A stretch of DNA of 64,000 bases from Candidatus Peregrinibacteria bacterium (GCA_018697675.1 JABINC010000042.1:7077-71076); one strand, 5' to 3'; numbered from the stretch's first letter, positions 12,251 to 60,596 are shown. Numbers and translations: made by a program. Notes: generated by a model not told the origin, from the letters alone.

Positions 12251-12325
12251 GCACGTGTCGTATAATGGCTATTATCCCGGCCTTCCAAGCCGATGATACG
12301 GGTTCGATTCCCGTCACGTGCTCCA
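12251..12325 (+). tRNA. tRNA-Gly (anticodon UCC), CCA encoded
   Basis: Hand-folded cloverleaf: acceptor GCACGTG/CACGTGC, anticodon loop CTTCCAA, T arm ACGGG-TTCGATT-CCCGT, discriminator T plus CCA. Confidence 0.9.
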
Positions 12326-12351: not shown

Positions 12352-12426
12352 GCACGTATCGTATAGTGGCTATTACATTGCCTTGCCAAGGCAGAAAGAC
12401 GGGTTCGATTCCCGTTACGTGCTCCA
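12352..12426 (+). tRNA. tRNA-Gly (anticodon GCC), CCA encoded
   Basis: Acceptor GCACGTA/TACGTGC (a compensatory change relative to the first tRNA), anticodon stem TTGCC/GGCAG, loop TTGCCAA, and a T arm identical to the first tRNA. Confidence 0.9.
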
Positions 12427-12541: not shown

Positions 12542-13672
12542 ATGGAGCCTCTCGCTTCGAAAATTAGGCCGAAAACACTTGAAGGTTTTTATGGGCAAGA
12601 GCATTTAGTTGGGAAAGGTAAGCCTCTGCGAGTAGCTATAGAAGAAAAACATCTGTTTTCGTTTATTTTGTGGGGACCGCCGGGAGTTGGAAAAACCACT
12701 TTGGCAAGGATTTATGCAAATGCTCTGGATGCGGATTTTTATGAGCTTTCTGCGGTGTCAGCGGGCAAAGCGGATATAAGAAAGATTGTTGATGAAGACA
12801 AGGGGCTTTTTGGCAAACCAAAGGTGCTTTTTCTAGATGAAATCCATAGATTCAACAAGGCCCAACAGGATTTTTTACTTCCTTTCGTTGAAAAAGGGAC
12901 TCTGACTTTGATCGGTGCTACTACAGAAAATCCGAGTTTCGAAGTTATATCTCCCCTGCTCTCACGGTGCAGGGTTTTCACCTTAAATTCGCTCACAGAT
13001 GAAGATATGGCAAAAATTCTTGAGAAAAGTGAATGCAAAATGGATGGAAAAGCAAAGGACTGGCTTATAAAGATGGCAAATGGGGATGGGAGACAAGCCA
13101 TCACCATGATTGAAAATACTCATAGTTTATATAAAAAAATCACTGTAGAGACTTTGAAAAACACTTTGCAATCAAAATTTTTGCGATACGACAAAGCCGG
13201 TGAAGAACACTATAACTTGATCAGTGCGTTTATAAAAAGCATGCGTGCAAGCCAGCCGGATGCCGCCATGTATTATATGGCGCGCATGCTGGACAGTGGT
13301 GAAGATCCCAAATTTATCGCCCGAAGAATGGTGATTTTTGCAAGTGAAGATATTGGAATTGCGGTCCCAACTGCACTCGTTGTGGCGAATGAAGTTTTTC
13401 GAGCGGTTGAGACGATAGGACTTCCAGAGTGTAGTCTGAACCTGGCACAGGGAGTGGCTTATCTCGCGAAATGTAAAAAAGACAGGAGTGTTTGTGATGC
13501 CCTCGGCAAAGCCATGAAAGATGTAAAAACTCATGGCAATCTACCCGTTCCATTAAATCTACGAAATGCTCCAACGAACCTTATGAAAGAACTCGATTAT
13601 GGTAAAGGCTATGAGAAATACACAAAAGATGACCTCATGCCGGAAAAGCTAAAAGGTAAGAGGTATTTCTAA
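12542..13672 (+). CDS. rarA: Replication-associated recombination protein A (AAA+ ATPase RarA/MgsA)
   Basis: LWGPPGVGKTTLARIYAN (Walker A), FLDEIHRFNKAQQD (Walker B/sensor) and a MgsA C-terminal domain (YYMARMLDSGEDPKFIARR). Confidence 0.9.
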   Translation: MEPLASKIRPKTLEGFYGQEHLVGKGKPLRVAIEEKHLFSFILWGPPGVGKTTLARIYANALDADFYELSAVSAGKADIRKIVDEDKGLFGKPKVLFLDEIHRFNKAQQDFLLPFVEKGTLTLIGATTENPSFEVISPLLSRCRVFTLNSLTDEDMAKILEKSECKMDGKAKDWLIKMANGDGRQAITMIENTHSLYKKITVETLKNTLQSKFLRYDKAGEEHYNLISAFIKSMRASQPDAAMYYMARMLDSGEDPKFIARRMVIFASEDIGIAVPTALVVANEVFRAVETIGLPECSLNLAQGVAYLAKCKKDRSVCDALGKAMKDVKTHGNLPVPLNLRNAPTNLMKELDYGKGYEKYTKDDLMPEKLKGKRYF

Positions 13673-16600
13673 GCTTCACCTAATCTTTCGAGGGCTTGCC
13701 TCACCAATTCAGCTTCTGATGCTGGCCAGTCTTTTAATACGTCTTTACTCTGTGTGACATGGGCGAAACGCCATAAATCTGTATGAGGGTTGAAACTCAA
13801 TTCTGCAGGATCATACTCTCCCCATTTAGCTACTAAAGAAGTACTAACATCTTTACCCATGTTCCAAGCTGACAGAGGCCCTCCCCCCCTATCATCAGAA
13901 CGATTGCATACTAACCCAACCCATATTTTATCCTCATATTGCCCTAATATAATACCTCTTCTACCTGTAAAGAACTCACCTCTTGTTGTTATGATATCGC
14001 CACATCCAAATCCGTAACTTTCATCAACTTGTCCCAATTTATAGGTCCTCCACTCTGAATGGTCAACTAGATGCGTACTAGTATATGGGAATCCATTCTC
14101 AGTTGGCTGATAATCCCCGACTGACATTGCTTTATACCTAGTGGCATCTGTTCCAATAGTCAAAACTTCTGAATATTCTGCAGGATCATATTCCCCCCAC
14201 CATCTAACAACTTCAAATCCATCAGCCCAATCTCCTTTCAAATGTTTTTTCATCTCTAAATGATGTAATTGCTTACTGCCATCTAATGCAGTTAAAAACA
14301 TTCCTTTTCCTGCAATATTGAACCCTTCAAAAAAGAAGCGCTGCCCTGGCCTAATTCCAAAACCATCATGGCAATCATATTCTCTAGTAACGGTAACTAT
14401 ATCGCCATGCCTCAACCTAGAATGCATACGACTTCTAACATCAACTTTTGATAAAGACGGCTTCCAATTTTTCAGCTGTATAATGTCATATGGATATTCA
14501 CCAATATACCCAGGTCTCAACCAATCAAGATTCATAATTCTCCTTGCGGTAACTTCTTCAATAGCTCTACCTAATTTAACGACTTGATCTCTCATGGATG
14601 GCACATCTACCGCCTTTCCAACATCTGATCTCACGAGTGCATTTAACCGCTCTGATATCTCCTGTAATTCCGCTTCTAATTTACGTATATTATCTAAAGC
14701 TTTACGACGGGCACTATTCAGTGATTTATTTAACGAAGCTGCTTTTGTCGCCTCAGTTTCACGATCTAAATTCGCTATTCTGGTAAGACACCATTTGACT
14801 TGTTTTCTAACTCCTGCAAGTACTCGCTCCCCTTCTAATCTACGTTGCTCTACTTCTGCATCAATACCCGCTAAAACGGCCTCCTGCCCTTCTAAAAATG
14901 ATTCTCTCAATTTTGCTTTATAGGGTTCTATTGCTGCTCGTATAGCTATCAATTCAGCCTTCAACGCCGCTAATTCGGCATCCCTAGCATCTGCCGGAAT
15001 CCCCTTCTCGGTTGGCTTAGTTGCGGTCACCTCTGCCGCTCCTCTGTTCCGCCAAATATCACGCAACTCTTCCAATTCAGCTAAAATAGGAGCTGCTTCA
15101 CCTGGAAGCTCTGGGATTTCTGATGCTTCTCTCTGTGCACCAAAATCAAGAGCGAATGGAGCACTATGCATTTTGATTGCGGTTTCAATCATGGCTGCCT
15201 CTTCACCAGCTTTCACTTCTTGACGTCTAAATAAAACTGCCATTTCTTTCAAAGCTTCAATAAAGTCTCCATCAGCAGATAAATGCCATTTCAATGCAGC
15301 CAAACGTAATAACTCATAATAATCATTTCCTGCAGTACCTCTTAAATTATCCATCTCCAATATTTTCATAATAAGATCTAGCGGAATTTCGACCTCATTC
15401 AAGCTTTCAAACTGAGATTTGACTGCTGCAAAAAGATCTAATTTTTCATCTAAAGTCTGTGGTGGCAAAACAGCCACACATAAACCGAACCTTCCATTTC
15501 TAAGCATTGCTGTATCCAGGTTTTGTGGATGATTGGACGTCCCTATTATAACTACCCCTTGCATTCCTTTTGAACCTATCTCGGATTGAAGATATGCTAT
15601 CACCTCATCATCATCATTACTCTTATTCCCAGTTTTTTCGGTATTGGGAAATATCTTCTCTAATTCATCTATACAAAGTACGCATGGAGCAAGTCTCTTT
15701 GCCGCCTCAATAGCAGCCCTATATCTATCTTCTTTCTTTCCACGAAGCCCCCCTGAACTTACATTCCCAAGTTTTAAAACAGGAACCCCTCCCATCAAAC
15801 TTGCTAAATAGTTGGCTCTGACACTTTTTCCCGTTCCAGGAGGCCCGATAAATGATATAGCCTGGGGGAGCAAATCTCTCTTTTCATGGAAAGCCACTGC
15901 TATATCTTTTAAAAACTTCCTTTCTGCCTCGGACATAGAAATCATCTCATCCGTATAATGTTTTTCTTCACAGGTCACAGCGCCTTCTGATCGAGTGGTG
16001 GCTTCTACCAACTTTTGTTGTTTCAAATCAGCTAAAAATTGTTCTTTTGTAGAACTGCGCATTAGACGAACTAAAGCCCTAAGAGATAATCCTTTGGCTT
16101 CTTTCAGAGCTTCATGAAATACAGCTACATCCAAGTCCAATCTTTTAAGTTGACCCTCGATCTCCGCCCTGGTTGGAGTTCCAATTTTCGTAGTTGTGAA
16201 GACCTTCGAAACTCCTCCATTTATTACATTATTTCTATCAATCAAAACCATACTGCTTCCAGAATGAGTCCTCAGAAAACTATGGAAAGCTAAAGTAATT
16301 CCTTCGTTGTTATAACGCTCCATAGATGCCGATGGCCCACTTTCTGCTCCTTTTGGCAGAAATAAGTCTGCATTGTCAATTATTAAACAAATTTTCTGTC
16401 CCTCTTTTGCAATTGCCTGCTTTAACATTTCGATCATCACCTTGTCTGACATAGAGCCATAAGTATCTCGGATTGTTCCCTTTGTCAGTAAAGATGGCAC
16501 TAGATTCTCGCCACCTCTATCTTTAACTTCGACTGCTAGATTCAAAAAATCATCTCTTTGACCCCCTTCTTCATCTGGCTCCTGAGCTTCTGCCGCGCCC

Positions 16601-17094
16601 TCTTTGTTACCAAGGCCAATTGATAATTCATCTGCAAAACTAAATGAGCAAGTTGCTGCATCATAAATGATAACCGTATCATATTTCCCTGAATATTCAG
16701 CTGCCTCCGCAGTGATATCTTTTAAATCACAGAAATGTGTTCTGCCTTCTGAATCTGAAATTGGAAAAAGATCAGATGTATCCCCTTTTATGCAAAGCCC
16801 TGGGTCGAAATCACTCAACTCACTTAGTGCGCTTAATAAATGGTCTGATCTCAATCCCTGCTTTTGGCTGGCGCGAATACCAGCAAATTCTGGGTCAAAA
16901 TAATATTTGAGGGGATCCTGTCTGCAATCTACCCCTCCTAATGCATCAATATCAAAATCCTGAGCTCTCCACTCCGCACATCTATCTCTCCATTCAGCTA
17001 CTATTGGGAATTCATCAAGATCATCAGAACATACCTGCTCAAGTTCTGCAACTATATCTGGACCCAAACCGTCAATGTCTAAAGTAGCTTTCAT
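13669..17094 (-). CDS. 1141-aa orphan protein: degenerate AAA-like module + classical-clade AAA+ ATPase + long coiled coil + duplicated C-terminal beta-rich module
   Basis: Walker A FIGPPGTGKS (nt 15823-15846), Walker B VLCIDELE, and an SRH-like TSNHPQNLDTAMLRNGRFG. An upstream pseudo-Walker-B ICLIIDNAD has no P-loop. Heptad-rich E/A/L/R region at aa ~660-850. Two C-terminal repeats each end in WGEYDPAE. Confidence 0.8.
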   Translation of the reverse strand: MKATLDIDGLGPDIVAELEQVCSDDLDEFPIVAEWRDRCAEWRAQDFDIDALGGVDCRQDPLKYYFDPEFAGIRASQKQGLRSDHLLSALSELSDFDPGLCIKGDTSDLFPISDSEGRTHFCDLKDITAEAAEYSGKYDTVIIYDAATCSFSFADELSIGLGNKEGAAEAQEPDEEGGQRDDFLNLAVEVKDRGGENLVPSLLTKGTIRDTYGSMSDKVMIEMLKQAIAKEGQKICLIIDNADLFLPKGAESGPSASMERYNNEGITLAFHSFLRTHSGSSMVLIDRNNVINGGVSKVFTTTKIGTPTRAEIEGQLKRLDLDVAVFHEALKEAKGLSLRALVRLMRSSTKEQFLADLKQQKLVEATTRSEGAVTCEEKHYTDEMISMSEAERKFLKDIAVAFHEKRDLLPQAISFIGPPGTGKSVRANYLASLMGGVPVLKLGNVSSGGLRGKKEDRYRAAIEAAKRLAPCVLCIDELEKIFPNTEKTGNKSNDDDEVIAYLQSEIGSKGMQGVVIIGTSNHPQNLDTAMLRNGRFGLCVAVLPPQTLDEKLDLFAAVKSQFESLNEVEIPLDLIMKILEMDNLRGTAGNDYYELLRLAALKWHLSADGDFIEALKEMAVLFRRQEVKAGEEAAMIETAIKMHSAPFALDFGAQREASEIPELPGEAAPILAELEELRDIWRNRGAAEVTATKPTEKGIPADARDAELAALKAELIAIRAAIEPYKAKLRESFLEGQEAVLAGIDAEVEQRRLEGERVLAGVRKQVKWCLTRIANLDRETEATKAASLNKSLNSARRKALDNIRKLEAELQEISERLNALVRSDVGKAVDVPSMRDQVVKLGRAIEEVTARRIMNLDWLRPGYIGEYPYDIIQLKNWKPSLSKVDVRSRMHSRLRHGDIVTVTREYDCHDGFGIRPGQRFFFEGFNIAGKGMFLTALDGSKQLHHLEMKKHLKGDWADGFEVVRWWGEYDPAEYSEVLTIGTDATRYKAMSVGDYQPTENGFPYTSTHLVDHSEWRTYKLGQVDESYGFGCGDIITTRGEFFTGRRGIILGQYEDKIWVGLVCNRSDDRGGGPLSAWNMGKDVSTSLVAKWGEYDPAELSFNPHTDLWRFAHVTQSKDVLKDWPASEAELVRQALERLGEA

Positions 17095-17104
17095 TACATA
17101 ATAA

Positions 17105-17746
17105 TTAAATATTTACACCTGTTACAACTTCCCCCACTCCACCAGACCCAAAAGCGATTGATCTCTCTTGAGGCTGACGAGCAAAAGATTCCTCACTCAA
17201 TCGATCTGTTAAATGATGGATTGTTTGATTTCTAGAACCTGCTATCGTCGTTAAATCACGTTCGCTCTTCCTATATTCACCGTCAATCACTACATCAACT
17301 AATTCTAATAATCTGGTAATGGCTTCATTTCCAAGTTGTTGTAAAAATCCCAGGCGGTATCCAGTAAATAAAATTACATCCATCATTGGTGATTCTGCTC
17401 TCAAAGCTTCCAAAACAGGAATTAAATTACGTGCCTGTAATACCGGCTCTCCTCCTTGTAAAGTCAACCCTCTGACCTCACCAACACTGTCACGTGACCG
17501 CCTTATACGTCTCAATAACTCCTCCGCTGTCATTAGGGTTTTTGCCTGAGTCACTTCTTCTACCGTCAACATTTCAGGGTTAGTGCACCCAACGCATCTT
17601 TTCATGCATCCTTGCAGCCATACAGATGTTCGTAAACCTGGGCCATGAGCTGCTCCAATTGAGCTAAATGCAGCTACATTTAACTGGGCACCTGGGTATA
17701 CCAATTCTTCAAAAGTTTCTCCTACATGTCTCTCTAAAACCGTCAT
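17105..17746 (-). CDS. NrdG-family glycyl-radical-enzyme activating protein (radical SAM)
   Basis: HGPGLRTSVWLQGCMKRCVGCTNPE (CX3CX2C), GLTLQGGEP, DVILFTGYRL and VIDGEY...GSRNQTIHHL are collinear with the conserved blocks of E. coli NrdG as I recall them. There is a 6-nt gap to the upstream gene and a 10-nt gap to the AAA+ gene. Confidence 0.8.
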   Translation of the reverse strand: MTVLERHVGETFEELVYPGAQLNVAAFSSIGAAHGPGLRTSVWLQGCMKRCVGCTNPEMLTVEEVTQAKTLMTAEELLRRIRRSRDSVGEVRGLTLQGGEPVLQARNLIPVLEALRAESPMMDVILFTGYRLGFLQQLGNEAITRLLELVDVVIDGEYRKSERDLTTIAGSRNQTIHHLTDRLSEESFARQPQERSIAFGSGGVGEVVTGVNI

Positions 17747-17752
17747 GAAAAT

Positions 17753-18595
17753 TTAGTTTTTTAATTTATTTCTTACTATTGGCCCGGCATTAACTGCAGT
17801 TGATCTCTGCGGAGTTTCTGACACAGCGGGCCGATCCGACCCATCGCCAAAACCACTTCTCCTTCCAGATAATCTGATTGGAGTTCCTGTTATCAAACCT
17901 ACTTGTTTCACCACCTCTCCAACTTGCCTTCGAAGGCCTTCTGAAGCCCTTCTGCAAGCCCCCAGTCCCGCTTCCGCATTTACATGTGTGAAAATTGCAC
18001 CATCTGGCATGAAGACAACCTCTCCATCTAATCCGTCTTTTCTGAGGACTAATTTCAATCCTTCCCTTACAATAGTGGGGGTTGTCACGCTCAAAGCTCC
18101 TGGGTTCACTAAGGTATATCCAGCTTCCTCCAGGGCTCTTTTCACTTTAAGTGGCACAACAAACAATGATCTAGATCTTCTAAGTGCCTCTTCAATCCTT
18201 TGTTTTAGCGCAGTATCAGCTGCCCCTCTAACCCTTCGGATCCTATCCCATTCTTCCAAAAATTCTGTATTAACTTCGCATAATGCAGTAGCGTACTGCT
18301 TCTCTTTTTCACTTACACCATAATCATTGAAAAATTGCTCTAACAATTCCTCAAATGTAACCCCAAAGTCTGTCAAACTCAACCCTCCAGCTCTGTGAGG
18401 AGATGATGCTTGGATATTTTCAAAAGCCAACTCCGCACATCCTCTTTGAAAAGCCTCATCCTCTTTTCCTCTCAAAGACTGATACTCCTGCAATAGACCT
18501 AATACAGGTTGTGAATACCCTTCCGCTACACCAACACTTCTTAAATATCGATTTACAGCTTTGGAAGAACAAAAATCTTCTGAATGATGACTCAT
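17753..18595 (-). CDS. Hypothetical 280-aa protein (orphan), immediately upstream of the activase
   Basis: Long ORF in operon context with no motif I recognise, apart from a weak glycyl-radical-like IRLSG 36 aa from the C-terminus. Confidence 0.6.
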   Translation of the reverse strand: MSHHSEDFCSSKAVNRYLRSVGVAEGYSQPVLGLLQEYQSLRGKEDEAFQRGCAELAFENIQASSPHRAGGLSLTDFGVTFEELLEQFFNDYGVSEKEKQYATALCEVNTEFLEEWDRIRRVRGAADTALKQRIEEALRRSRSLFVVPLKVKRALEEAGYTLVNPGALSVTTPTIVREGLKLVLRKDGLDGEVVFMPDGAIFTHVNAEAGLGACRRASEGLRRQVGEVVKQVGLITGTPIRLSGRRSGFGDGSDRPAVSETPQRSTAVNAGPIVRNKLKN

Positions 18596-18653
18596 AGACT
18601 ATGATTAATATGAAGAAGGGATAATAGCACAAAATGGACAAGAGTCAATACTA

Positions 18654-18998
18654 TTACCCATCTATTTCAGCCGAATCTCGACGACTATTTTCACCTAATT
18701 GAATAGCTCTGCACTTAGCTCTTGCACATTTTCTTACTCTCTTAAATAAAGCTATTAATGGATCGAATTCTGTATGCTTTGCATCATATTCCTCTCTTGC
18801 CTCTTTAAGGCTTCTAGCATGATCTGCACTTACAGTTTCGTACATATGTGCGATGTCACGAGCCATTTTTAATTCATAACCAACAGAATCTAGGATCTTT
18901 CTCATTTCTTTTATTGGCCTGTCCATTTGCTCAGATTGCATCCAACATTCAATTGGACGACATGGTGACTCTTCATGAAATTGGCATTCGTCTTCCAT
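18654..18998 (-). CDS. Hypothetical 114-aa Cys-containing protein
   Basis: I prefer the start at MEDECQF (nt 18998), because a promoter-like element lies inside the longer ORF-track version (start 19043). Five Cys residues (C5, C13, C18, RKCARAKC). Confidence 0.45.
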   Translation of the reverse strand: MEDECQFHEESPCRPIECWMQSEQMDRPIKEMRKILDSVGYELKMARDIAHMYETVSADHARSLKEAREEYDAKHTEFDPLIALFKRVRKCARAKCRAIQLGENSRRDSAEIDG

Positions 18999-19027
18999 AT
19001 TTTTCTTATAAAAAATATTAAGAAAGC

Positions 19028-19056
19028 ATAATACTAAATACACTTGCCTGTGGCAA
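19028..19056 (-). promoter_or_regulatory. Putative promoter of the orphan cassette (TTGCCA-N17-TATTAT on the minus strand)
   Basis: -35 at plus 19051-19056 and -10 at plus 19028-19033, 30 nt upstream of the ATG at 18998. It overlaps the palindrome CTTGCC-TGT-GGCAAG. Confidence 0.4.
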
Positions 19057-19130
19057 GTCTATCTTTCAGGAATTTGTCAACCTTGAAGAGAAGCTGAAAA
19101 GCAGGAGGTATTTTGAATTTAAATTTTAAC

Positions 19131-20015
19131 TTACGCTGCGAGTCCGAAAATTTGGAAAATATCTGTAGATTCGTTTGCGATAAACATCTTGCCATCTTTG
19201 TTCCAACTTTCTGGTAATTCTGGAGTCTCAGGCCTTTGCATATTTCTCGCTGCAGTATGAGGCTCTGCGAAAGCACTAATCCTACTACTCAACTCATCCG
19301 AAGCAGTACCATATTTTGCCCATATTCTATGGCATCCATACTTTTCTCCAAGACCCATGTCTTTTGGTCCATTATCACCAATTATCACAACCTCATTTGC
19401 GATTCGTTCACGGACCATTTCTACTACAGATTCTAGTTCCGTATCAGGCTTCGCCTTCTCTACAACTTGTATCTGTGGATATTTTGAAAGATCTCTCTTG
19501 CTTCGAAGTTCATCTGGAACATCTATTTCTGCCATCGGCATACCACAGATTTTGTCTATATACGGGATTAGCCCTGCACGTTCCAATCTTGATAATGCTT
19601 GATTCCATGGAGCGTCCGTCAAAATCACCTGCCGTATACCTCTTGCTCGGAGCTCTATCATCACTTCTATTATACCATCATAAACATGGAAGCCTTCACT
19701 ACGCGCAGCCTCAAATTCTTCTCGCACCCTTAATATAACTTCCGTTTCATCAAAATTTTCACAATCATCAAAAAGTCCATGCTCATTTAACCATTGTACA
19801 AGCCCTTCATTTTCGAGCGTCTTTTTTTCACCGTAAAAAGTTCTCATCATTGCGGTTGTCTCCTCGGGCGATTTCCCAGAAATCTCCGCAATAAAATCCC
19901 GCATCCGCTCATACGCATGAACCGCATATCCAACCCAGTCCCAAAGCGTATTATCTGCATCCCAGACAACTGTACTTATATCATCGAGAGGGATTTTGGG
20001 TGCGGTTTCGGTCAT
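19131..20015 (-). CDS. HAD-superfamily phosphatase/hydrolase
   Basis: Motif I VVWDADNTLWD (DxDxT), motif II VILTDAP, motif III Lys (EKAKPD) and motif IV IIGDNGPKD. Confidence 0.75.
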   Translation of the reverse strand: MTETAPKIPLDDISTVVWDADNTLWDWVGYAVHAYERMRDFIAEISGKSPEETTAMMRTFYGEKKTLENEGLVQWLNEHGLFDDCENFDETEVILRVREEFEAARSEGFHVYDGIIEVMIELRARGIRQVILTDAPWNQALSRLERAGLIPYIDKICGMPMAEIDVPDELRSKRDLSKYPQIQVVEKAKPDTELESVVEMVRERIANEVVIIGDNGPKDMGLGEKYGCHRIWAKYGTASDELSSRISAFAEPHTAARNMQRPETPELPESWNKDGKMFIANESTDIFQIFGLAA

Positions 20016-20543: not shown

Positions 20544-22067
20544 CTATTTCTGTTTCTTCACTATTTTTATGAAGAAAATTAGCCCAAAGAGCATCACTCC
20601 GAGAACGAGGATGCCTTTTACGACTCTCACTACATCTCGCATTACCATACGGAAGCTAGTCTGTTGATTCTCTTCTGGAGTCATCTCGCGAAGAAGATCG
20701 TCTTTTGGAGTGTCGTCTGCAACTTCTTCTACGACCTCTTCTGTTGGTTCAGTAGCTGGTTCCGAAACCTCTTCTTTTTCATATTCCGGTGGCTCAAACA
20801 ACCCCAGGAGCTTAAATTCTGATATAGCGGTATCATCATATTTTGTACCTTCGTATACGCTCACAATTTCTAATTTTACTTCATCATAGGCTTTGATTGG
20901 CTGTGGCAAATTCACAATCTGATATCCGAATTCATCTTTCAGTTCCAAAATTTGTTCGCTTCCATCTGAGAAAATAAGTTTCAATTCTGATACACGATTG
21001 TTCTCTGCCCAGAGCTCCTGTGATGCACCATAGCCATTAAAAATACGGGCTTTTTCGTATGTTCTCTCCAGATTGTCTCCATATCCGTTGTATTCCATCT
21101 GAATAGGAGATCTCGCCCATTCGCCTATCCCATCTCCTTCTACTCCTTCAACCCATGCCGTCTCTGTATTATGGTCATGAGAATAACAAGGTGTATATGA
21201 AAGTTCTCCTTGTACTTGCAGCCAAGAAGAGGCGTCTTTCGGCCCTAGCTCTTCGTCATACAAACTACACATCATGTTTTTACCGTTTATGTCTGTATAT
21301 TGGATTTTTATATTATCAGTAGCACCTGGCTCAAAATCAGTGAAATGCCATTTAACTTGATTGAAACTTGGGTCAAATTCATAACCTGCCGGAGCTGCTT
21401 TATCTAAATCATGTACAGTTATACCACCATGGAATGTCACAACAATCTTCGCACTTTCTATTGAGTTTTTCCAAGATGAACCCGTCGACAATGTGTAATT
21501 CGTCCAACTCATACCCGCTTTGTAACTGTTTGGGATAGCCCAATATGTGTTTTTGATCTCCGTATTTCCAGGAGGAAAAGTTAATTCTGAAACATACCAA
21601 TTTGGCACTTCTGAGTCATATTCATTTATTTGCAATTCTTCTGTGCCAGCCTGCTTTTCTACCGCTATTTCTTCCCATTTGTTGTTTTGCTTTTTGAAAG
21701 TTTTGAAATCTTGCAATTTGTCTCGAGAACTTGAGTCCCTGCATTCATAGTCGCAAAATTCTGGGAAGCCCATTTTTATATCTACTGCCTCTTCTGAAAT
21801 ATTTTTAAAAGTGTAAGTAATGTCGTATTTAACATATCCACTCATTAATTTCTCATCTTCAATTTCCCCAGGTTCTATGCCTTCCCAGACCCACTTCCCA
21901 CTGGGATAGATATCTATTTTTACGATTTCATCTAACATCTGAACATCACTGTTGTTTAGAATTTTTATGTTGCCACCCTTGCCACCGATAGAGGCCTCAT
22001 CTGCAAAAACCAATCCTGGAAAAGCGATCAAGAGAGTTAGAAATATTGATAAAAGTATGTTTTTCAT
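20544..22067 (-). CDS. Secreted, C-terminally membrane-anchored protein with a discoidin/NADase-type glycan-binding-like domain
   Basis: Signal peptide MKNILLSIFLTLLIAFPGLVFA and a C-terminal TM helix ILVLGVMLFGLIFFI. The block TETAWVEGVEGDGIGEWAR...NRVSELKLIFSDGSEQ...ISEFKLLG resembles jelly-roll carbohydrate-binding modules. The N-terminal half is possibly DUF4424-like. Confidence 0.55.
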   Translation of the reverse strand: MKNILLSIFLTLLIAFPGLVFADEASIGGKGGNIKILNNSDVQMLDEIVKIDIYPSGKWVWEGIEPGEIEDEKLMSGYVKYDITYTFKNISEEAVDIKMGFPEFCDYECRDSSSRDKLQDFKTFKKQNNKWEEIAVEKQAGTEELQINEYDSEVPNWYVSELTFPPGNTEIKNTYWAIPNSYKAGMSWTNYTLSTGSSWKNSIESAKIVVTFHGGITVHDLDKAAPAGYEFDPSFNQVKWHFTDFEPGATDNIKIQYTDINGKNMMCSLYDEELGPKDASSWLQVQGELSYTPCYSHDHNTETAWVEGVEGDGIGEWARSPIQMEYNGYGDNLERTYEKARIFNGYGASQELWAENNRVSELKLIFSDGSEQILELKDEFGYQIVNLPQPIKAYDEVKLEIVSVYEGTKYDDTAISEFKLLGLFEPPEYEKEEVSEPATEPTEEVVEEVADDTPKDDLLREMTPEENQQTSFRMVMRDVVRVVKGILVLGVMLFGLIFFIKIVKKQK

Positions 22068-22200: not shown

Positions 22201-25200
22201 ATGCTTAAAATTTCAAAAAAAATCTGTATAGTGCTTATTTTAGCAACGTTTTTGTCTTTTTCTCTTGCCATTAGTACTGTATTTGCAGGTGGCCCAACTT
22301 ATACCGTAGATACCCTAACTGATGAAAATGATGGTGACTGTGGAGGAGATGGAGACTGTGCGCTCCGTGACGCACTTGATGATGCAAGTTCTACTGGAGG
22401 TAAGATTGATTTCAGTGTTAGTGGAACCATAACTTTTGGATCTAATGGACCAAGTATAAGTGGGTCTAATGCGATTAGTTTGGAATGTGATGGGAACATC
22501 ATCTTTGATGGTAGTGGAGGTAGTTGGAAAGGATTTCATTTAGGAAATAATGGTACAATTAAGGGATGTCAGATTCAAAACATGAACGAATCTTCTGTAT
22601 ATATGGAAGGAGGAGCGACTCTCGGAGGTGCTACTGCTGCTGACAGAAATATTATATTAGACAAAGGAATCGATGTAAGTAGTAATAATAACAGAATTGT
22701 CGGTAACTATATCGGACTTGAATCAGATGGATCCACTGTGAACGCGGGGGCAACTGGTGTTTATATATCTAGTGGAAGCGGCCATCAGATCGGGAGCAAT
22801 AGTGCGGGAGGAATTAACGTAATTTCTGGACAAAGCGGCTGTGGTATCGACTTTGCTACTATTGGTGTCACTGGTGACGTAAATATTTGGGGGAATTATA
22901 TAGGAACCGATGCTACTGGAACTGTATCCAAACAAAACACTACTGGTATATGTATCGACAATGGAACCCCTACTTTAGCTGGGAATATTGTTATTGGTGG
23001 TAATACGGAAGATGAACGTAATGTAATTGCCGGAAATTTGGGTGATGGTATCTATATAAGTACTGCAACATTCACTGGTAACCTTTCAATTGATGGAAAT
23101 TTTATAGGCGTGGATTCTACTGGTAATACCATGCTCACGAATGGGGATGAAGGTATTGAACTCTATAGTGCTGATTGTAGTGGCGGAACATGTGAAATTG
23201 TGAGTAATGTTATCTCTGGTAATAGTGGGAATGGTATTGAATTCGGCGGAGCGACAAGTGCTTTTGATATTTTCGATAACTGGATTGGTATTAATAAAGA
23301 TGGTGACACTGCTATAGCAAATGCAAATGGTATATACACCGCTGACACTTCTTCTGATATTTCAATTGGAGTTTCTGGGGAAGACCCAAATGTAATTTCT
23401 GGTAATACTGGGGCTGGTGTTTTATTTAATGATGGTTCTAGCTTTACAGTTGAAGGCAATATAATTGGTCTTAATTTTACCTCAGACACAGCTATTGCGA
23501 ATGGATATGGAATAAGGACTCTCGGTGGAGATGATATTACTATCGGTGGTAGCAGCACACCAGAATCAAATATTATTTCTGGGAATGGCGTTGGTATAGA
23601 AATCAACGATACTTCGGGAAATCTTTCAAATGTAACTGTGACTGGTAACTATATTGGTACAAACACCTCTCTTGAAGATTTTGGAAATAGTGGAGCGGGT
23701 ATATTGATAAATAATGGAATGACTACAGCTACTCTGGGTTATGGATTTTCTGATACAATCGATTCTCCGCTCATAAAGGCAAATAAGATTGGGTTTAATG
23801 GAAGCGGTAGTGATAATGATATAACCGTTGATGGCGGTAGCACTAATACAAATACGCTTCGTGGTAATATATTTTCTTTGGCAGCTGGGGACAGTTCAGC
23901 TAACACTGCATTTGAAGATGGAGCCCAAGGTGACGCAAGTAATTCTGGGACTGCTTTTACAACTATAAATGAAGATGAAATTACTGGTACAACTGATGCT
24001 GCTGATGGAAGTAAAATTGATTTTTATACTTTAGATGGAAGTTACAACACTACATTTGCGGGAACTGAAACAATTGCTAGTGGAGCTTTCTCGCTCTCTG
24101 GGACATTTACTCTAGGAGATACCGTTTATTATCAGATAATTAAATCTGATGGTAACTCTTATCCTTTTGCAAGTGCTGGAACAATAGTAGATGCTGCACC
24201 TACGGGACTCGCTAATTTTGCTATCAGCAGAAGTGGGAATGATATGGCTGCTTCATGGACCGCAGCTACTTCTAGTAATTTCTTGAATTATGAAATCTGG
24301 TATGGAACGACTGAAGCGGATGTAGGGAATCGGACTGGGACTGCAACTGAATGGGACAATGACGATGACACCGATCTAGCAACTGTAACTACTGCTTCGA
24401 CAACTATAACCGCAGGAACTATGGACCTGACAACTCCTGGTCAAACTTATTACTTCAAAATCTGGGCTGTGGGAAGTGGTGGAGAAGCTACTTTGAATGC
24501 TCTTTCTTACTTTACTGGTGTATCTGGAGGAGGCTCGAGTAGCTCATCTAGTAGCTCATCTTCTAGTAGCGAGGCTGGCAGCTCTGAAGAGGGCACTTCT
24601 GAAGGTGGGACTTCCGGAGGGACTGGAACGTCTGCAGTGAGCCCCGTGGAAGCCGCAATTGATGACTCGGTAGCTGGATATGATGAAAGTTCATCTGAAG
24701 ATAGTGGTTCTGGGACTGATGATGAATGGAGTGATGATGAAGTAAGCGATGACTCTTCGGATGAAGTAAGCGATTCTGAAGAGGCAGTTGAAGGTGGAGG
24801 CACCGCAACTGTAAATCCTGAAGAAGAAGCTGAGAAGAAAAAGGATTCAGATAGAGATAAACTTTCTAATTACCTTGAGAAACAACTGGGGACTGATCCA
24901 TTTGATGAAGATACTGATGGAGATGGACTTACCGATTACAAAGAATTGAAAAAACATAAAACAAATCCACTCTCGATGGACACGGATGAAGATGGATTTA
25001 CCGATAATTATGAGCTTTTGAATGCATTTGATCCGAATGATATCTGTGATCCTGGAAGTGTTAATTTAGACAAAGAAATTCAAGAAGAATGTGCGAAATA
25101 TGCAACAAGGGCCAAGAACATTAAGAAAATTAAGATTAAGAAAAAGAGTGAAGAGCAGATTGCTGCGGAAGCAGCTGAAGAAGCAGCGGAAGAAGCAAAG

Positions 25201-25851
25201 AAAGAAATTGAAGTTGATGAAAAGATTGTAGAAGAAGTTCAGGAAGAAGCGAAGAAAGTACTTCAAGAAGAAGAGAATAAAGAGATGCTTTGGAGTGAGA
25301 GATATTACAAAAAATTGCTTGGGACAGAGACTATTCGGCAGGCTGTGAGTGCGTCGCCGAATCTCAAGAAAACTATCAAGAGATTTATAGATGATCCTGA
25401 TGCCAAGACGACCAAGGGAGATGCCCTCATACTTTCTATGATTATATTCAATGGAGATCTGATAAAAGACGAAAGCCTAACGAGTTCAGACGATGCTAGC
25501 GCATTTGTTACTCGCGCACTTTCTGGACGTATTTTGAATAAATTTATTCACAGTGCATTTGATAAGAAAGAGTCTTTGTCGCGCGGCGAAGCCGCGCGCA
25601 TGATGCTCAAAGCATCTGGAATATCTCTGAAGATGAGATTCTCTTCGAAAGCTGAAGAAAACTTCGGATTTGATTCTTCACCTTGTACCGACGTATCGCG
25701 AAGCATAGAAAACGCCTCATACGTTTATTACCTGCTCAACAAAGGAATCCTCGAAGGCTACGAAGACAAAACATGCCGACCATACGCATCAGTCTCAAAT
25801 GCCGAATTCGTCAAGATGCTGATCCTACTTGATCAGGAGAGGGTGAAGTAA
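22201..25851 (+). CDS. 1216-aa secreted mosaic surface protein: right-handed beta-helix (PbH1) repeats + FN3 + Ser/acidic linker + thrombospondin-type-3 Ca-binding repeats + K/E coiled region + SLH-like C-terminus
   Basis: Signal peptide. Repeated (N)VI(S/A)GN..(D/N)GI motifs. FN3 WTAATSSNFLNYEIWYG...YYFKIWAV. Poly-Ser S13. DTDGDGLTDYKE and DTDEDGFTDNYE. C-terminal VSRSIENASYVYYLLNKGILEGYED...SNAEFVKMLILL. Confidence 0.8.
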   Translation: MLKISKKICIVLILATFLSFSLAISTVFAGGPTYTVDTLTDENDGDCGGDGDCALRDALDDASSTGGKIDFSVSGTITFGSNGPSISGSNAISLECDGNIIFDGSGGSWKGFHLGNNGTIKGCQIQNMNESSVYMEGGATLGGATAADRNIILDKGIDVSSNNNRIVGNYIGLESDGSTVNAGATGVYISSGSGHQIGSNSAGGINVISGQSGCGIDFATIGVTGDVNIWGNYIGTDATGTVSKQNTTGICIDNGTPTLAGNIVIGGNTEDERNVIAGNLGDGIYISTATFTGNLSIDGNFIGVDSTGNTMLTNGDEGIELYSADCSGGTCEIVSNVISGNSGNGIEFGGATSAFDIFDNWIGINKDGDTAIANANGIYTADTSSDISIGVSGEDPNVISGNTGAGVLFNDGSSFTVEGNIIGLNFTSDTAIANGYGIRTLGGDDITIGGSSTPESNIISGNGVGIEINDTSGNLSNVTVTGNYIGTNTSLEDFGNSGAGILINNGMTTATLGYGFSDTIDSPLIKANKIGFNGSGSDNDITVDGGSTNTNTLRGNIFSLAAGDSSANTAFEDGAQGDASNSGTAFTTINEDEITGTTDAADGSKIDFYTLDGSYNTTFAGTETIASGAFSLSGTFTLGDTVYYQIIKSDGNSYPFASAGTIVDAAPTGLANFAISRSGNDMAASWTAATSSNFLNYEIWYGTTEADVGNRTGTATEWDNDDDTDLATVTTASTTITAGTMDLTTPGQTYYFKIWAVGSGGEATLNALSYFTGVSGGGSSSSSSSSSSSSEAGSSEEGTSEGGTSGGTGTSAVSPVEAAIDDSVAGYDESSSEDSGSGTDDEWSDDEVSDDSSDEVSDSEEAVEGGGTATVNPEEEAEKKKDSDRDKLSNYLEKQLGTDPFDEDTDGDGLTDYKELKKHKTNPLSMDTDEDGFTDNYELLNAFDPNDICDPGSVNLDKEIQEECAKYATRAKNIKKIKIKKKSEEQIAAEAAEEAAEEAKKEIEVDEKIVEEVQEEAKKVLQEEENKEMLWSERYYKKLLGTETIRQAVSASPNLKKTIKRFIDDPDAKTTKGDALILSMIIFNGDLIKDESLTSSDDASAFVTRALSGRILNKFIHSAFDKKESLSRGEAARMMLKASGISLKMRFSSKAEENFGFDSSPCTDVSRSIENASYVYYLLNKGILEGYEDKTCRPYASVSNAEFVKMLILLDQERVK

Positions 25852-34222: not shown

Positions 34223-34480
34223 CTATTTCAGCTTCTCATCCAAAACTCCTTCGTCTTCGAGGGCTTGGAGGTCTGTGTAGCCGCCGATTAGTTCGTCATT
34301 GATGTAGATTTGTGGGACTGTCATGAGAGTACCGCCGGAGCGTTCCATCATTTCTTTCTGTTTGGATTCGTCTTCAATAATGTCGTATTCGACAAATTCA
34401 ACACCCTTTTCTTCGAAAAGAGCCTTAGTTTGCATGCAGTATGGACAGTGATTTTTTGAATAAATCTCTATCTTGGCCAT
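34223..34480 (-). CDS. grxC: Glutaredoxin
   Basis: 85 aa with the CPYC active site, TVPQIYIND and GGYTDL. Confidence 0.85.
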   Translation of the reverse strand: MAKIEIYSKNHCPYCMQTKALFEEKGVEFVEYDIIEDESKQKEMMERSGGTLMTVPQIYINDELIGGYTDLQALEDEGVLDEKLK

Positions 34481-60553: not shown

Positions 60554-60596
60554 TTTTTTGGTATCGTTTCGCGGTTTTTTTCGTTATATTTGTTGC

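What the first reader, a model, noticed from the sequence alone, without database searches (positions are those of the whole stretch)
13669..19056. Orphan cassette: small Cys protein, 280-aa orphan, NrdG-type radical-SAM activase and a 1141-aa AAA+/coiled-coil protein; candidate undescribed system
Four minus-strand genes are packed with gaps of 58, 6 and 10 nt behind their own promoter-like element (TTGCCA-N17-TATTAT, 19028-19056).
1. A 114-aa protein with 5 Cys.
2. A 280-aa protein with no recognisable family.
3. A clear NrdG-family glycyl-radical activase.
4. A 1141-aa protein with four parts: a degenerate AAA-like module, a classical-clade AAA+ domain (GPPGTGKS, CIDELE, NGRFG), a ~190-aa coiled coil, and a duplicated beta-rich C-terminal module.
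A HAD phosphatase gene (19131-20015) lies immediately upstream in the same orientation. There is no NrdD or other known glycyl-radical enzyme, and no protease or proteasome partner for the AAA+ protein. I do not recognise this gene combination from any described pathway or defence system. The only loose precedent I know is the ATPase chaperone (BssE) encoded next to the activase in benzylsuccinate synthase operons. Possible roles include a new glycyl-radical protein with a dedicated unfoldase or chaperone, or a nucleotide-pool-directed stress or defence module.
Basis: partly seen in the sequence, partly recalled or inferred. Interest (0 to 1): 0.8.

Follow-up and report, generated by a model that had tools for sequence, protein, structure and literature searches.

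The report
Conserved radical-SAM, AAA+ and orphan-protein trio
Three adjacent genes (an unknown 280-aa protein, a radical-SAM enzyme resembling the activases of glycyl-radical enzymes, and a large two-ring AAA+ ATPase with a swappable tail) form a rare, strictly conserved module in candidate-phyla-radiation bacteria; its function is unknown, and it most resembles a stripped-down, so far undescribed relative of computationally predicted conflict systems.

Summary
The genes are real and lie at the stated coordinates. The conserved unit is three genes, not four or five:
- orphan, 17753-18595
- NrdG-like radical SAM (rSAM), 17105-17746
- AAA+ ATPase, 13669-17094

This order recurs in 10 lineages (rSAM identity 35-87%). 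The named ones are Peribacteria, Gracilibacteria and Altimarinota MAGs. Flanking genes differ between lineages. The small Cys protein and the HAD gene appear only in the window's own lineage.

- **rSAM:** it has the full glycyl-radical-activase core but scores below NCBI's NrdG cut-off. No NrdD lies nearby.
- **Orphan:** a rare family (24 clusters among 1.84 billion representatives). Its model is confident (pLDDT 86) but has no significant structural match and no glycyl-radical motif.
- **AAA+ protein:** a p97/Rix7-like tandem ATPase with a dead D1 and an active D2. A roughly 190-aa helical stalk follows, then a C-terminal module that differs between lineages (ankyrin repeats in one).

More distant rSAM relatives also sit next to two-domain classical AAA+ ATPases. 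In Gemmataceae they sit beside a Pfam "FtsH ternary system" domain.

The closest precedent is the FtsH-type AAA+/radical-SAM conflict systems predicted by Kaur et al. (2020). Their defining MoxR and vWA genes are absent here. I rate this a new variant of a known kind, with the mechanism inferred only.

The parts
17753..18595 (-). Core gene 1: 280-aa family-specific partner protein (alpha+beta, no known family or fold). The most conserved features are L74-T75-x-[FYWL]-G78-[VI] at a beta-hairpin tip and the near-invariant C214.
   Evidence: No Pfam, NCBIfam or PADLOC family. Only 24 clusters at E<=1e-3 among 1.84 billion representatives. Alignments A5/A8. AF2 pLDDT 86.3, pTM 0.81. No Foldseek match at E<=1e-3 in PDB or BFVD. 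Always directly upstream of the rSAM gene.
17105..17746 (-). Core gene 2: 213-aa radical SAM enzyme of the glycyl-radical-activase (NrdG/PflA) type. It has the CX3CX2C cluster (C47, C51, C54; nt 17585-17608), an HGPGxR loop, a GGEP motif and a family-specific C-terminal extension.
   Evidence: Fer4_12 E 5.8e-29. TIGR02491 NrdG 97.3 bits, below the 126.1 cut-off; PFLA 67 bits; QueE 17 bits. Invariant catalytic residues in alignment A4. Only copy in the window.
13669..17094 (-). Core gene 3: 1141-aa type-II classical-clade AAA+ ATPase (whole gene).
16843..17094 (-). AAA+ residues 1-84: N-terminal extension specific to the window lineage, not aligned in other family members.
   Evidence: BLASTP and alignment: the conserved region starts at about residue 85. 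Low pLDDT.
15910..16842 (-). AAA+ residues 85-395: degenerate D1 AAA domain. There is no P-loop (KGDTSD in its place). A Walker-B-like KICLIIDNAD and a sensor-1-like LIDRNN are retained.
   Evidence: Family-specific profile aaaN hits only trio AAA proteins. Weak hhalign match to the D2 Walker B/sensor-1 region, E 0.024. Foldseek alignments of 625-678 columns to tandem D1-D2 of Rix7/p97/Afg2, E about 1e-18.
15115..15909 (-). AAA+ residues 396-660: active D2 AAA domain plus lid. It has Walker A GPPGTGKS, Walker B IDELE, sensor-1 N521, Arg fingers R532/R535, and a non-aromatic pore loop GLRG.
   Evidence: PF00004 E 4.5e-23. Invariant catalytic residues across the family. Best PDB sequence matches are VAT, Afg2 and p97 (E about 1e-52 to 1e-43).
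14530..15093 (-). AAA+ residues 668-855: long helical (coiled-coil-like) stalk, present in all family members.
   Evidence: DSSP helices 668-690, 701-775, 782-828 and 831-855 in the model. Low-complexity helical similarity among family C-terminal halves.
13669..14529 (-). AAA+ residues 856-1141: lineage-specific beta-rich C-terminal module carrying a repeated WGEYDPAExS motif. I presume it is a target- or partner-binding domain. Other lineages have unrelated modules in its place.
   Evidence: No homologue in the loci, PDB or 5.8-billion-protein search. Repeat motif z 4.8. C-termini are unrelated between lineages; ankyrin repeats in L011 (E 4e-32).
18621..18648 (-). Promoter-like site (TTGACT-N16-TG-TATTAT) in the 58-nt gap directly upstream of the orphan gene. 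It is a candidate promoter for the three-gene core.
   Evidence: 10 of 12 consensus match with an extended -10. Consensus match only; the count in the region does not exceed chance.
18654..18998 (-). 114-aa protein with 5 Cys. It is specific to the window lineage and is not a conserved component; it may be a local accessory.
   Evidence: A 102-aa gene occupies the same position only in the syntenic close relative. tblastn finds it in no other locus. No family.
19028..19058 (-).
19131..20015 (-). HAD-family hydrolase. It is a neighbour only in the window lineage and is probably not part of the system.
   Evidence: PF00702 E 4e-13. Present in the syntenic relative. Absent next to the trio in all other lineages.

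Best explanation
**Shown**
- The orphan, rSAM and AAA+ genes form one conserved three-gene module. In the contigs that carry a taxon name it is found only in the Peribacteria/Gracilibacteria/Altimarinota branch of the candidate phyla radiation.
- The rSAM keeps every catalytic motif of the protein-directed glycyl-radical activases, but it is neither a curated NrdG nor next to any NrdD.
- The AAA+ protein is a p97/Rix7-like tandem ATPase with an inactive D1 and a catalytically intact D2. A long helical stalk follows, then a C-terminal module that is exchanged between lineages (ankyrin repeats in one).
- The 280-aa protein is a rare family with a confidently modelled fold that matches nothing known.

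**Inferred**
- The module is a minimal relative of the FtsH-type-AAA+/radical-SAM biological-conflict systems predicted by Kaur et al. 2020, but without MoxR and vWA.
- The variable C-terminal module binds a target, either an invader or a partner-cell protein.
- The D2 ring uses ATP to remodel or gate the 280-aa protein.
- The rSAM abstracts a hydrogen atom from that protein. The candidate sites are the invariant hairpin Gly78 and the near-invariant Cys214. This converts the protein into an active or modified effector.
- Which protein is the rSAM substrate, and what the output is, remain unknown.
For: **Strict synteny**
- The order orphan, rSAM, AAA is found in 10 lineages with rSAM identity 35-87% and non-syntenic flanks.

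**Conserved catalytic residues**
- rSAM: C47, C51, C54 and GGEP are invariant.
- AAA D2: Walker A, Walker B, sensor 1 and Arg fingers are invariant.

**rSAM family placement**
- Best matches are NrdG, then PflA, and far below them QueE or viperin.

**Tandem AAA fold**
- Foldseek aligns 625-678 columns to Rix7/p97 D1-D2 at E about 1e-18.
- D1 lacks a P-loop.

**Variable C-termini**
- They are unrelated between lineages; L011 carries ankyrin repeats.

**The rSAM/AAA+ partnership recurs in distant relatives**
- Gemmataceae: rSAM, then fvmX6 (PF20004, 'FtsH ternary system domain X6', E 1e-171 or lower), then an FtsH-like AAA-M41 protein.
- Bacillaceae and Actinomycetota MAGs: rSAM plus a two-domain Ycf46-like AAA plus DUF2997.

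**Published precedent**
- Kaur et al. describe a tandem FtsH-type AAA+ with an inactive N-terminal domain, plus a 'distinctive radical SAM' predicted to modify a separately encoded peptide effector.

**Distribution**
- The orphan family is rare and patchy (24 clusters).
Against: - No MoxR or vWA gene lies in or near any trio locus, so the defining core of the published systems is missing.
- Neighbours of the trio are housekeeping or unknown genes, not defence islands. PADLOC gives only generic AAA hits.
- I found no MoxR or vWA near the Gemmataceae rSAM either. The link to 'FtsH ternary systems' therefore rests on the fvmX6 label and an adjacent FtsH-like gene.
- The AAA pore loop is non-aromatic (GLRG; alignment), so substrate threading is uncertain.
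- No residue of the orphan matches the glycyl-radical fingerprint. G237, the conserved Gly nearest the C-terminus, is replaced in 3 of 24 family members.
- Nothing here shows conflict with a virus or host. No trio was found on viral contigs.
Confidence: 0.42

Rival explanations
1. This is the first reader's idea: a dedicated physiological radical-protein pathway. The 280-aa protein would be a new kind of glycyl or thiyl radical protein or enzyme, activated by its own NrdG-like activase. The AAA+ would act as an assembly or repair chaperone, by analogy with the BssD activase and BssE ATPase of benzylsuccinate synthase operons (own knowledge).
For: The rSAM belongs to the protein-directed activase clade and keeps the GPGxR substrate loop. 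The orphan has an invariant Gly at a beta-hairpin tip (G78) and a near-invariant Cys (C214). Gene coupling is tight, with gaps of 6 and 10 nt. Neighbours are housekeeping genes.
Against: The orphan lacks the RVxG[FYW] fingerprint and the 10-stranded barrel, and no known fold matches it. A chaperone for one fixed client would not be expected to swap its C-terminal domain between lineages. The family is very rare and patchy for a metabolic function.
Confidence: 0.25
2. The rSAM acts on a nucleotide, RNA or small molecule, in the manner of viperin or QueE. The orphan and the AAA+ would then be regulators or scaffolds. In the window lineage the HAD phosphatase would process the product.
For: In Planctomycetota the homologous rSAM always follows RtcA, an RNA 3'-phosphate cyclase. 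A HAD hydrolase lies upstream here and in the close relative. Fer4_12-type rSAMs include QueE.
Against: Similarity to QueE or viperin models is marginal (17 and 12 bits) against 97 bits for NrdG and 67 for PflA. HAD is absent in 8 of 10 lineages. RtcA is absent from all trio loci.
Confidence: 0.15
3. The rSAM is simply the housekeeping NrdG of a class III ribonucleotide reductase encoded elsewhere, and the flanking genes are unrelated neighbours.
For: The best family match is NrdG, and JGI annotates the homologues that way. The rest of the genome was not available to check for nrdD.
Against: The score is below NCBI's equivalog cut-off (97.3 against 126.1). The subfamily has its own signature (HGPGxR and a C-terminal extension). 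It is flanked by the same two unrelated-looking genes in all 10 lineages despite different surroundings. No NrdD is found among window ORFs of 500 aa or more.
Confidence: 0.04

Closest known systems
FtsH-type AAA+ 'ternary' conflict systems, simple type, with a radical-SAM effector (Kaur, Burroughs, Iyer & Aravind, eLife 2020; computational prediction only)
   Same: Both have a protein with two classical/FtsH-type AAA+ domains, the N-terminal one inactive (P-loop and Walker B lost) and the second active. Both have a small 'distinctive' radical SAM enzyme encoded alongside, plus a separately encoded protein proposed as its substrate. The window rSAM's next-closest relatives outside the CPR (32-37% identity) sit beside a PF20004 fvmX6 protein and an FtsH-like AAA-M41 protein in Gemmataceae.
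   Different: There is no MoxR and no vWA, which are the defining pair, and no M41 peptidase, NEFF1 or Ubl components. The AAA+ carries a coiled-coil stalk and a variable C-terminal module instead. The partner is a new 280-aa family unrelated to fvmX6. The hosts are reduced CPR bacteria rather than multicellular-type bacteria.
Glycyl-radical enzyme/activase pairs (NrdD-NrdG, PflB-PflA, GrcA)
   Same: The rSAM shares the full activase core: CX3CX2C, a GPGxR loop and GGEP. Its best matches are the NrdG and PflA models.
   Different: It scores below the NrdG cut-off. No GRE gene is adjacent in any of 10 lineages. The partner protein lacks the Gly-radical fingerprint and the barrel fold.
Type II classical AAA+ unfoldases (Cdc48/p97, VAT, Rix7, Afg2/Drg1)
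   Same: The tandem D1-D2 fold aligns over about 650 columns. D2 is closest in sequence to VAT, Afg2 and p97. Arg fingers and sensor 1 are conserved.
   Different: D1 has lost its nucleotide-binding motifs. Pore loop 1 is GLRG rather than aromatic-hydrophobic-Gly. No Cdc48-type N domain was detected. A unique coiled-coil stalk and variable C-terminus are present.
BssD/BssE (activase plus ATPase chaperone in benzylsuccinate synthase operons; own knowledge)
   Same: A glycyl-radical activase is encoded next to an AAA+-superfamily ATPase.
   Different: BssE is, to my knowledge, a small MoxR-like ATPase that accompanies a canonical GRE (BssA). Here the ATPase is a 1141-aa tandem classical AAA+ and there is no GRE.
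Uncharacterised rSAM + Ycf46-like AAA + DUF2997 clusters (L014 Bacillaceae MAG, L021 Actinomycetota MAG)
   Same: A homologous NrdG-like rSAM (32-37% identity over the best segment) lies within about 1.5 kb of a two-domain AAA+ with a ~280-aa N-terminal domain and an active classical AAA. Orphan residues 188-229 weakly resemble the beta-beta-alpha DUF2997 motif (hhalign E 0.032, a hint only).
   Different: That is a five-gene cluster with a membrane/HHH_3 protein and a separate 73-aa DUF2997 protein. Its AAA is 547-573 aa, without a stalk or variable tail. Homology of the orphan to its components is not established.
IetAS (Gao_Iet) anti-phage system
   Same: The best PADLOC and NCBIfam defence hit of the AAA+ is IetA (E 8e-8, 30 bits; IteA 27 bits against a 510 cut-off).
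   Different: The hit covers only the generic AAA domain. There is no IetS protease, and the score is far below the family cut-off.

Membership tests
NrdG (class III RNR activase, TIGR02491) | Radical SAM core: CX3CX2C cluster, GPGxR loop and GGEP SAM-binding motif | tested here: met
   C47, C51, C54, G35-P36-G37-x-R39 and G98-G99-E100-P101 are invariant in the subfamily.
NrdG (class III RNR activase, TIGR02491) | Score at or above the curated equivalog cut-off | tested here: not met
   97.3 bits against a cut-off of 126.1; PRK11121 gives 73 against 199. Distant relatives also score 90-115 bits.
NrdG (class III RNR activase, TIGR02491) | Partner NrdD encoded in the genome, usually adjacent | tested here: inconclusive
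   No NrdD among window ORFs of 500 aa or more or next to the rSAM in any trio locus. The rest of the genome was not available.
Glycyl-radical enzyme / GrcA-type radical domain (for the 280-aa protein) | Gly-radical fingerprint RVxG[FYW] about 25-30 residues from the C-terminus | tested here: not met
   No such motif in the 24-sequence alignment. The C-proximal G237 is replaced by C or L in 3 members.
Glycyl-radical enzyme / GrcA-type radical domain (for the 280-aa protein) | GRE alpha/beta barrel or Gly-radical-domain fold | tested here: not met
   The confident model (pLDDT 86) is a helical bundle plus a small mixed sheet. There are no matches at E<=1e-3, and no GRE appears among the 50 best matches listed in either library.
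FtsH ternary conflict system (Kaur et al. 2020) | MoxR AAA+ and vWA co-chaperone pair | tested here: not met
   No MoxR (AAA_3) or vWA family above threshold in the window genes scanned, or in the neighbours of trio loci that were scanned or carry precomputed Pfam hits. The flanking AAA gene is MgsA/RarA.
FtsH ternary conflict system (Kaur et al. 2020) | Third component with two FtsH-type AAA+ domains, the N-terminal one inactive and the C-terminal one active | tested here: met
   D1 has no P-loop and D2 has intact motifs. The model aligns with tandem D1-D2 of type II AAA+ proteins. Description taken.
FtsH ternary conflict system (Kaur et al. 2020) | Associated 'distinctive radical SAM' with a separately encoded substrate protein | tested here: inconclusive
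   An rSAM and a separate partner are present. The homologous rSAM (32-37% identity) sits beside fvmX6 in Gemmataceae. I could not check the accession lists of the paper; the supplement look-up failed.
Type II classical AAA+ unfoldase (Cdc48/p97-like) | Walker A/B, sensor 1 and second-region-of-homology Arg fingers in the active ring | tested here: met
   G417-x-P419-G420-x-G422-K423-S424, D476-E477, N521, R532 and R535 are invariant in 7 family members.
Type II classical AAA+ unfoldase (Cdc48/p97-like) | Aromatic-hydrophobic-Gly pore loop 1 for substrate threading | tested here: not met
   The equivalent position reads G-[LF]-[RS]-G (GLRG in the window) in place of K-[YWF]-[VI]-G (alignments).
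Known anti-phage defence systems (PADLOC-DB v2) | Match of the components to a system's models | tested here: not met
   Only generic AAA hits to IetA (30 bits) and noise-level hits for the other proteins.

The most novel reading that the evidence does not exclude
The 280-aa protein is a new class of radical-bearing or radical-modified protein with a previously unseen fold. It would be activated by a dedicated NrdG-like activase, and loaded, gated or reset by a tandem AAA+ machine whose interchangeable tail selects the target. That would extend glycyl-radical-activase chemistry beyond canonical GREs and give CPR bacteria a radical-based effector for conflict or episymbiosis.
Probability: 0.2. 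Interest if true: 0.85.

Novelty: new variant of a known kind. Interest (0 to 1): 0.6.

Why it matters
As far as I know, every characterised activase of the NrdG/PflA type has a canonical glycyl-radical enzyme as its substrate. Here such an activase is locked in ten lineages to a non-GRE protein of unknown fold and to a p97-like ATPase.

If the partnership is functional, several things follow:
- It defines a new substrate class for this chemistry.
- It gives a first experimental handle on the FtsH-type-AAA+/radical-SAM conflict systems, which so far have only been predicted.
- The three-gene version is much simpler than the MoxR-vWA systems and easier to reconstitute.
- It adds one of the few candidate dedicated conflict or interaction modules known in Peribacteria- and Gracilibacteria-type CPR bacteria, whose biology depends on contact with host cells.

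Tried and rejected
1. **Orphan and fvmX6.** A profile-profile comparison found no relation (probability 0.1%).
2. **Orphan and solved structures by sequence.** Nothing found.
3. **Orphan fold against PDB and BFVD.** No match at E<=1e-3. The best is a 110-column local match to the N-domain of spermine synthase (TM 0.25), which I treat as insignificant.
4. **Orphan C-terminal half and DUF2997.** hhalign aligns exactly the region I suspected (188-229), but at E 0.032 and probability 1.6%. HMMER finds no DUF2997 in the 7 family members scanned. I keep this as a hint only.
5. **Orphan and the x264/x164 or HHH_3 proteins of L014/L021.** No relation.
6. **G237 as a Gly-radical site.** Rejected because it is not invariant.
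7. **AAA N-terminal region and the FtsH-like proteins of Gemmataceae.** Only the active AAA domain aligns.
8. **Window AAA C-terminal module.** No homologue in the 5.8-billion-protein search, the fetched loci or PDB. AlphaFold did not fold it.
9. **My visual impression that the L004 tail is LRR-like.** Not supported by Pfam or PDB searches.
10. **MoxR or vWA near the Gemmataceae rSAM.** None found.
11. **Viral contigs.** Only two distant rSAM hits (31% identity), and neither carries the orphan or the family-specific AAA N-region.
12. **Horizontal acquisition of the block.** Composition of genes 13669-20015 differs mildly from the immediate neighbours, but it is matched by other genes in the window. 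This is inconclusive.
13. **Tool failures.** Full-text literature search failed on all four attempts, and the supplement look-up failed once.

Full report
**1. Observation**

The five minus-strand ORFs are present exactly as described:
- AAA+ 13669-17094 (1141 aa)
- radical SAM (rSAM) 17105-17746 (213 aa)
- orphan 17753-18595 (280 aa)
- small protein 18654-18998 (114 aa from the ATG, 5 Cys)
- HAD hydrolase 19131-20015

The gaps of 58, 6 and 10 nt are correct. Pfam, NCBIfam and PADLOC give the following:
- The large protein has a classical AAA domain (PF00004, E 4.5e-23, residues 415-537).
- The 213-aa protein matches Fer4_12 and Radical_SAM.
- The 294-aa protein matches HAD.
- The 280-aa and 114-aa proteins match nothing.

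The promoter-like site at 19056-19028 exists. However, such matches are no more frequent here than in shuffled sequence (16 against 15.1). An equally good site with an extended -10 lies at 18648-18621, immediately upstream of the orphan gene. A hairpin followed by a T-rich stretch at 19058-19042 looks like the terminator of the HAD gene.

**2. What is conserved**

Word-indexed searches of 5.8 billion proteins gave these results:
- Orphan: one homologue (66% identity).
- AAA+ protein: no full-length homologue.
- rSAM: a small family (75-38% identity).

Looking up where those rSAMs are encoded, and scanning GTDB genomes and metagenomes with the rSAM subfamily profile, gave loci in which the same three genes occur in the same order: a ~260-350-aa orphan homologue, then the rSAM, then a large AAA+.

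I built local profiles for four parts: the orphan, the rSAM, the family-specific AAA N-region and the AAA D2. These confirm the trio in 10 lineages. In short contigs only the parts that fit are seen:
- window/L001
- L002/L003
- L004-L006
- L007/L034
- L008 (Ca. Peribacteria)
- L009 and L010/L026 (Ca. Gracilibacteria)
- L011 (Ca. Altimarinota, a complete chromosome)
- L027
- L028

Pairwise rSAM identities among these lineages are 35-87%. The flanking genes are not syntenic between lineages. Where recognisable, they are housekeeping: V/A-ATPase subunit B, a thioredoxin-reductase-like protein, an SLH-CAP protein and a TrmB regulator.

The 114-aa Cys protein and the HAD gene occur only in the window and in its close syntenic relative. 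The functional unit is therefore the trio, not a four- or five-gene cassette.

**3. The rSAM**

The subfamily keeps the CX3CX2C cluster, the GPGxR loop (as HGPGxR), GGEP and other activase motifs as invariant residues. It adds a ~35-aa C-terminal extension. NCBIfam ranks it as follows:
- NrdG: 97.3 bits
- PflA: 67 bits
- other GRE activases: lower
- QueE: 17 bits
- viperin: 12 bits

The NrdG score is below the curated cut-off of 126.1. It is the only such gene in the window. No NrdD is found among window ORFs of 500 aa or more. I could not examine the rest of the genome.

**4. The 280-aa protein**

An exhaustive phmmer search of 1.84 billion cluster representatives found only 24 clusters at E<=1e-3, all 244-349 aa except one 89-aa sequence. 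The 24-sequence alignment shows near-invariant A54, A57, L74, G78, F112, W116, G159, G179 and C214.

The strongest motif is L-T-x-[FYWL]-G78-[VI]. The only member without G78 (P0044) has Trp wherever the others have Gly. I read this as a UGA=Gly organism translated with the wrong genetic code.

The AlphaFold model is confident (pLDDT 86.3, pTM 0.81). It shows:
- an N-terminal strand;
- a helical bundle;
- a beta-hairpin (72-75 and 78-81) with G78 at its tip;
- a small sheet packed against helix 211-235, which begins at C214.

Foldseek finds nothing at E<=1e-3 in PDB or BFVD. The protein lacks the RVxG[FYW] fingerprint, and the C-proximal G237 is replaced in three members. It is therefore not a canonical glycyl-radical protein. 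It is also unrelated to fvmX6.

**5. The AAA+ protein**

Only residues ~85-670 are conserved across the family.
- **D2 (about 396-660).** It has invariant Walker A, Walker B, sensor 1 and Arg fingers. It is closest to VAT, Afg2 and p97. Its pore loop reads GLRG rather than aromatic-hydrophobic-Gly.
- **D1 (about 85-395).** It has no P-loop, but it keeps a Walker-B-like hhhhD and a sensor-1-like N.
- **Model.** A six-sequence AlphaFold model is moderate for residues 80-650 (pLDDT about 70-85). It aligns over 625-678 columns with the tandem D1-D2 of Rix7, p97, Cdc48 and Afg2 (E about 1e-18, TM up to 0.56 on the target). The protein is therefore a type II AAA+ with a dead D1.
- **Stalk.** Residues 668-855 form long helices.
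- **C-terminus.** The modules beyond the stalk are unrelated between lineages:
  - a beta-rich module with a repeated WGEYDPAExS motif in the window;
  - ankyrin repeats in L011 (E 4e-32);
  - unidentified domains in L004 and L009;
  - coiled coil alone in L010; in L008 also little beyond the coiled coil, though its tail is interrupted by an assembly gap.

**6. Wider context**

The next-closest rSAM relatives (31-40% identity) also fall below the NrdG cut-off (90-115 bits). They are repeatedly linked to classical AAA+ proteins:
- **Gemmataceae (Planctomycetota).** The order is RtcA, then rSAM, then a PF20004 'FtsH ternary system domain X6' protein, then an FtsH-like AAA-M41 protein with a ~290-aa N-extension.
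- **A Bacillaceae MAG and an Actinomycetota MAG.** The rSAM sits in a five-gene cluster with a Ycf46-like two-domain AAA, a DUF2997 protein, a membrane/HHH_3 protein and one further protein.

Kaur et al. (eLife 2020, PMC7159879) describe 'FtsH ternary systems'. In these, MoxR and vWA are joined by a protein with two FtsH-type AAA+ domains, the first inactive. [quoted passage not shown]

The window's AAA+ and rSAM fit that description. However, MoxR, vWA, the M41 peptidase and every other listed component are absent. I also found no MoxR or vWA near the Gemmataceae loci.

**7. Interpretation**

Shown:
- a rare, strictly conserved three-gene module;
- catalytically intact rSAM and AAA D2 domains;
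- a dead D1;
- a variable C-terminal tail;
- a partner protein with no known fold.

Inferred (confidence about 0.4): this is a minimal relative of the predicted AAA+/rSAM conflict systems. The variable tail recognises a target, the ATPase remodels or gates the 280-aa protein, and the activase-type rSAM abstracts a hydrogen from it (G78 or C214 are the candidates) to create or arm an effector.

Points against this reading:
- There is no defence-island context and no match to a PADLOC system.
- The pore loop is non-aromatic.
- There is no direct sign of conflict.

Rivals:
- a nucleotide- or RNA-directed rSAM (0.15), suggested by RtcA in Planctomycetota and HAD here, but not by the family scores;
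- a housekeeping NrdG (0.04), contradicted by the synteny and the sub-threshold score.

**8. Novelty and verdict**

The trio matches no curated family or defence model, and I know of no description of it.

It fails the defining MoxR-vWA test for the published systems but shares their unusual AAA+/rSAM pairing. I therefore class it as a new variant of a known, computationally predicted kind. Interest is 0.6: a GRE-type activase locked to a non-GRE protein and a p97-like machine is unexpected and easy to test, but its function remains inferred.

Noticed in passing
window 12251-12325 and 12352-12426: Two tRNA-Gly genes (anticodons TCC and GCC) lie 1.2 kb from the 3' end of the AAA+ gene. rarA/mgsA (12542-13672) lies between them and overlaps the AAA+ stop by 4 nt in convergent orientation. 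I found no repeat or integrase that would suggest an island boundary.
   Followed up: partly
window 13669-20015: The five genes share a mild compositional signature relative to their immediate neighbours: fewer K/N/I/Y/F residues (0.13-0.22), a higher R/(R+K) ratio (0.51-0.86) and lower GC3 (0.24-0.34). Several other genes in the window look similar, so this is not evidence of recent transfer.
   Followed up: partly
P0044 (homologue of window 17753-18595): This family member has Trp at many positions where all the others have Gly, including the invariant G78, G179 and G199. This fits a Gracilibacteria-type UGA=Gly genome translated with a UGA=Trp table in the source database.
   Followed up: partly
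L004/L005 17993-20134 (L006 8779-10920): A diversity-generating retroelement (reverse transcriptase RVT_1 plus the bAvd accessory protein) lies 4-5 kb downstream of the trio in this lineage. An HSP20 gene and an HD-domain gene lie in between.
   Followed up: no
L015 6774-9910; L016 6852-9876; L018 6899-8603; L020 6890-12827; L029 1223-2976; L037 14-4614: In Gemmataceae and other Planctomycetota the NrdG-like rSAM directly follows RtcA (RNA 3'-phosphate cyclase) wherever the upstream sequence is present. Downstream is either an fvmX6 protein plus an FtsH-like AAA-M41 protein, or an alpha/beta hydrolase. I am not aware of any described RtcA-rSAM pairing.
   Followed up: partly
L014 7953-12666; L021 4948-8600: A five-gene cluster is shared by a Bacillaceae MAG and an Actinomycetota MAG. 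It comprises an NrdG-like rSAM, a membrane protein with a C-terminal ComEA-type HHH_3 domain, a Ycf46-like two-domain AAA+, a 73-aa DUF2997 protein and a 164-264-aa protein of unknown family. It appears to be another uncharacterised rSAM/AAA+ system.
   Followed up: partly
window 20544-22067: This is a 507-aa protein with an N-terminal signal or transmembrane segment. Its counterpart at the same position in the syntenic relative's contig, also 507 aa, carries a precomputed PF25302 NADase_transloc hit. I did not scan the window copy itself.
   Followed up: no
window 40034-46858, 22201-25851, 34468-36021, 60558-62102: The window holds several very large or surface-type proteins: a 2274-aa fn3-containing protein, a 1216-aa repeat protein and two SLH-domain proteins. 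An archaeal-type PEP carboxylase (46973-48502) is also present. This gene content suggests to me a cell-surface-rich CPR-like organism.
   Followed up: no
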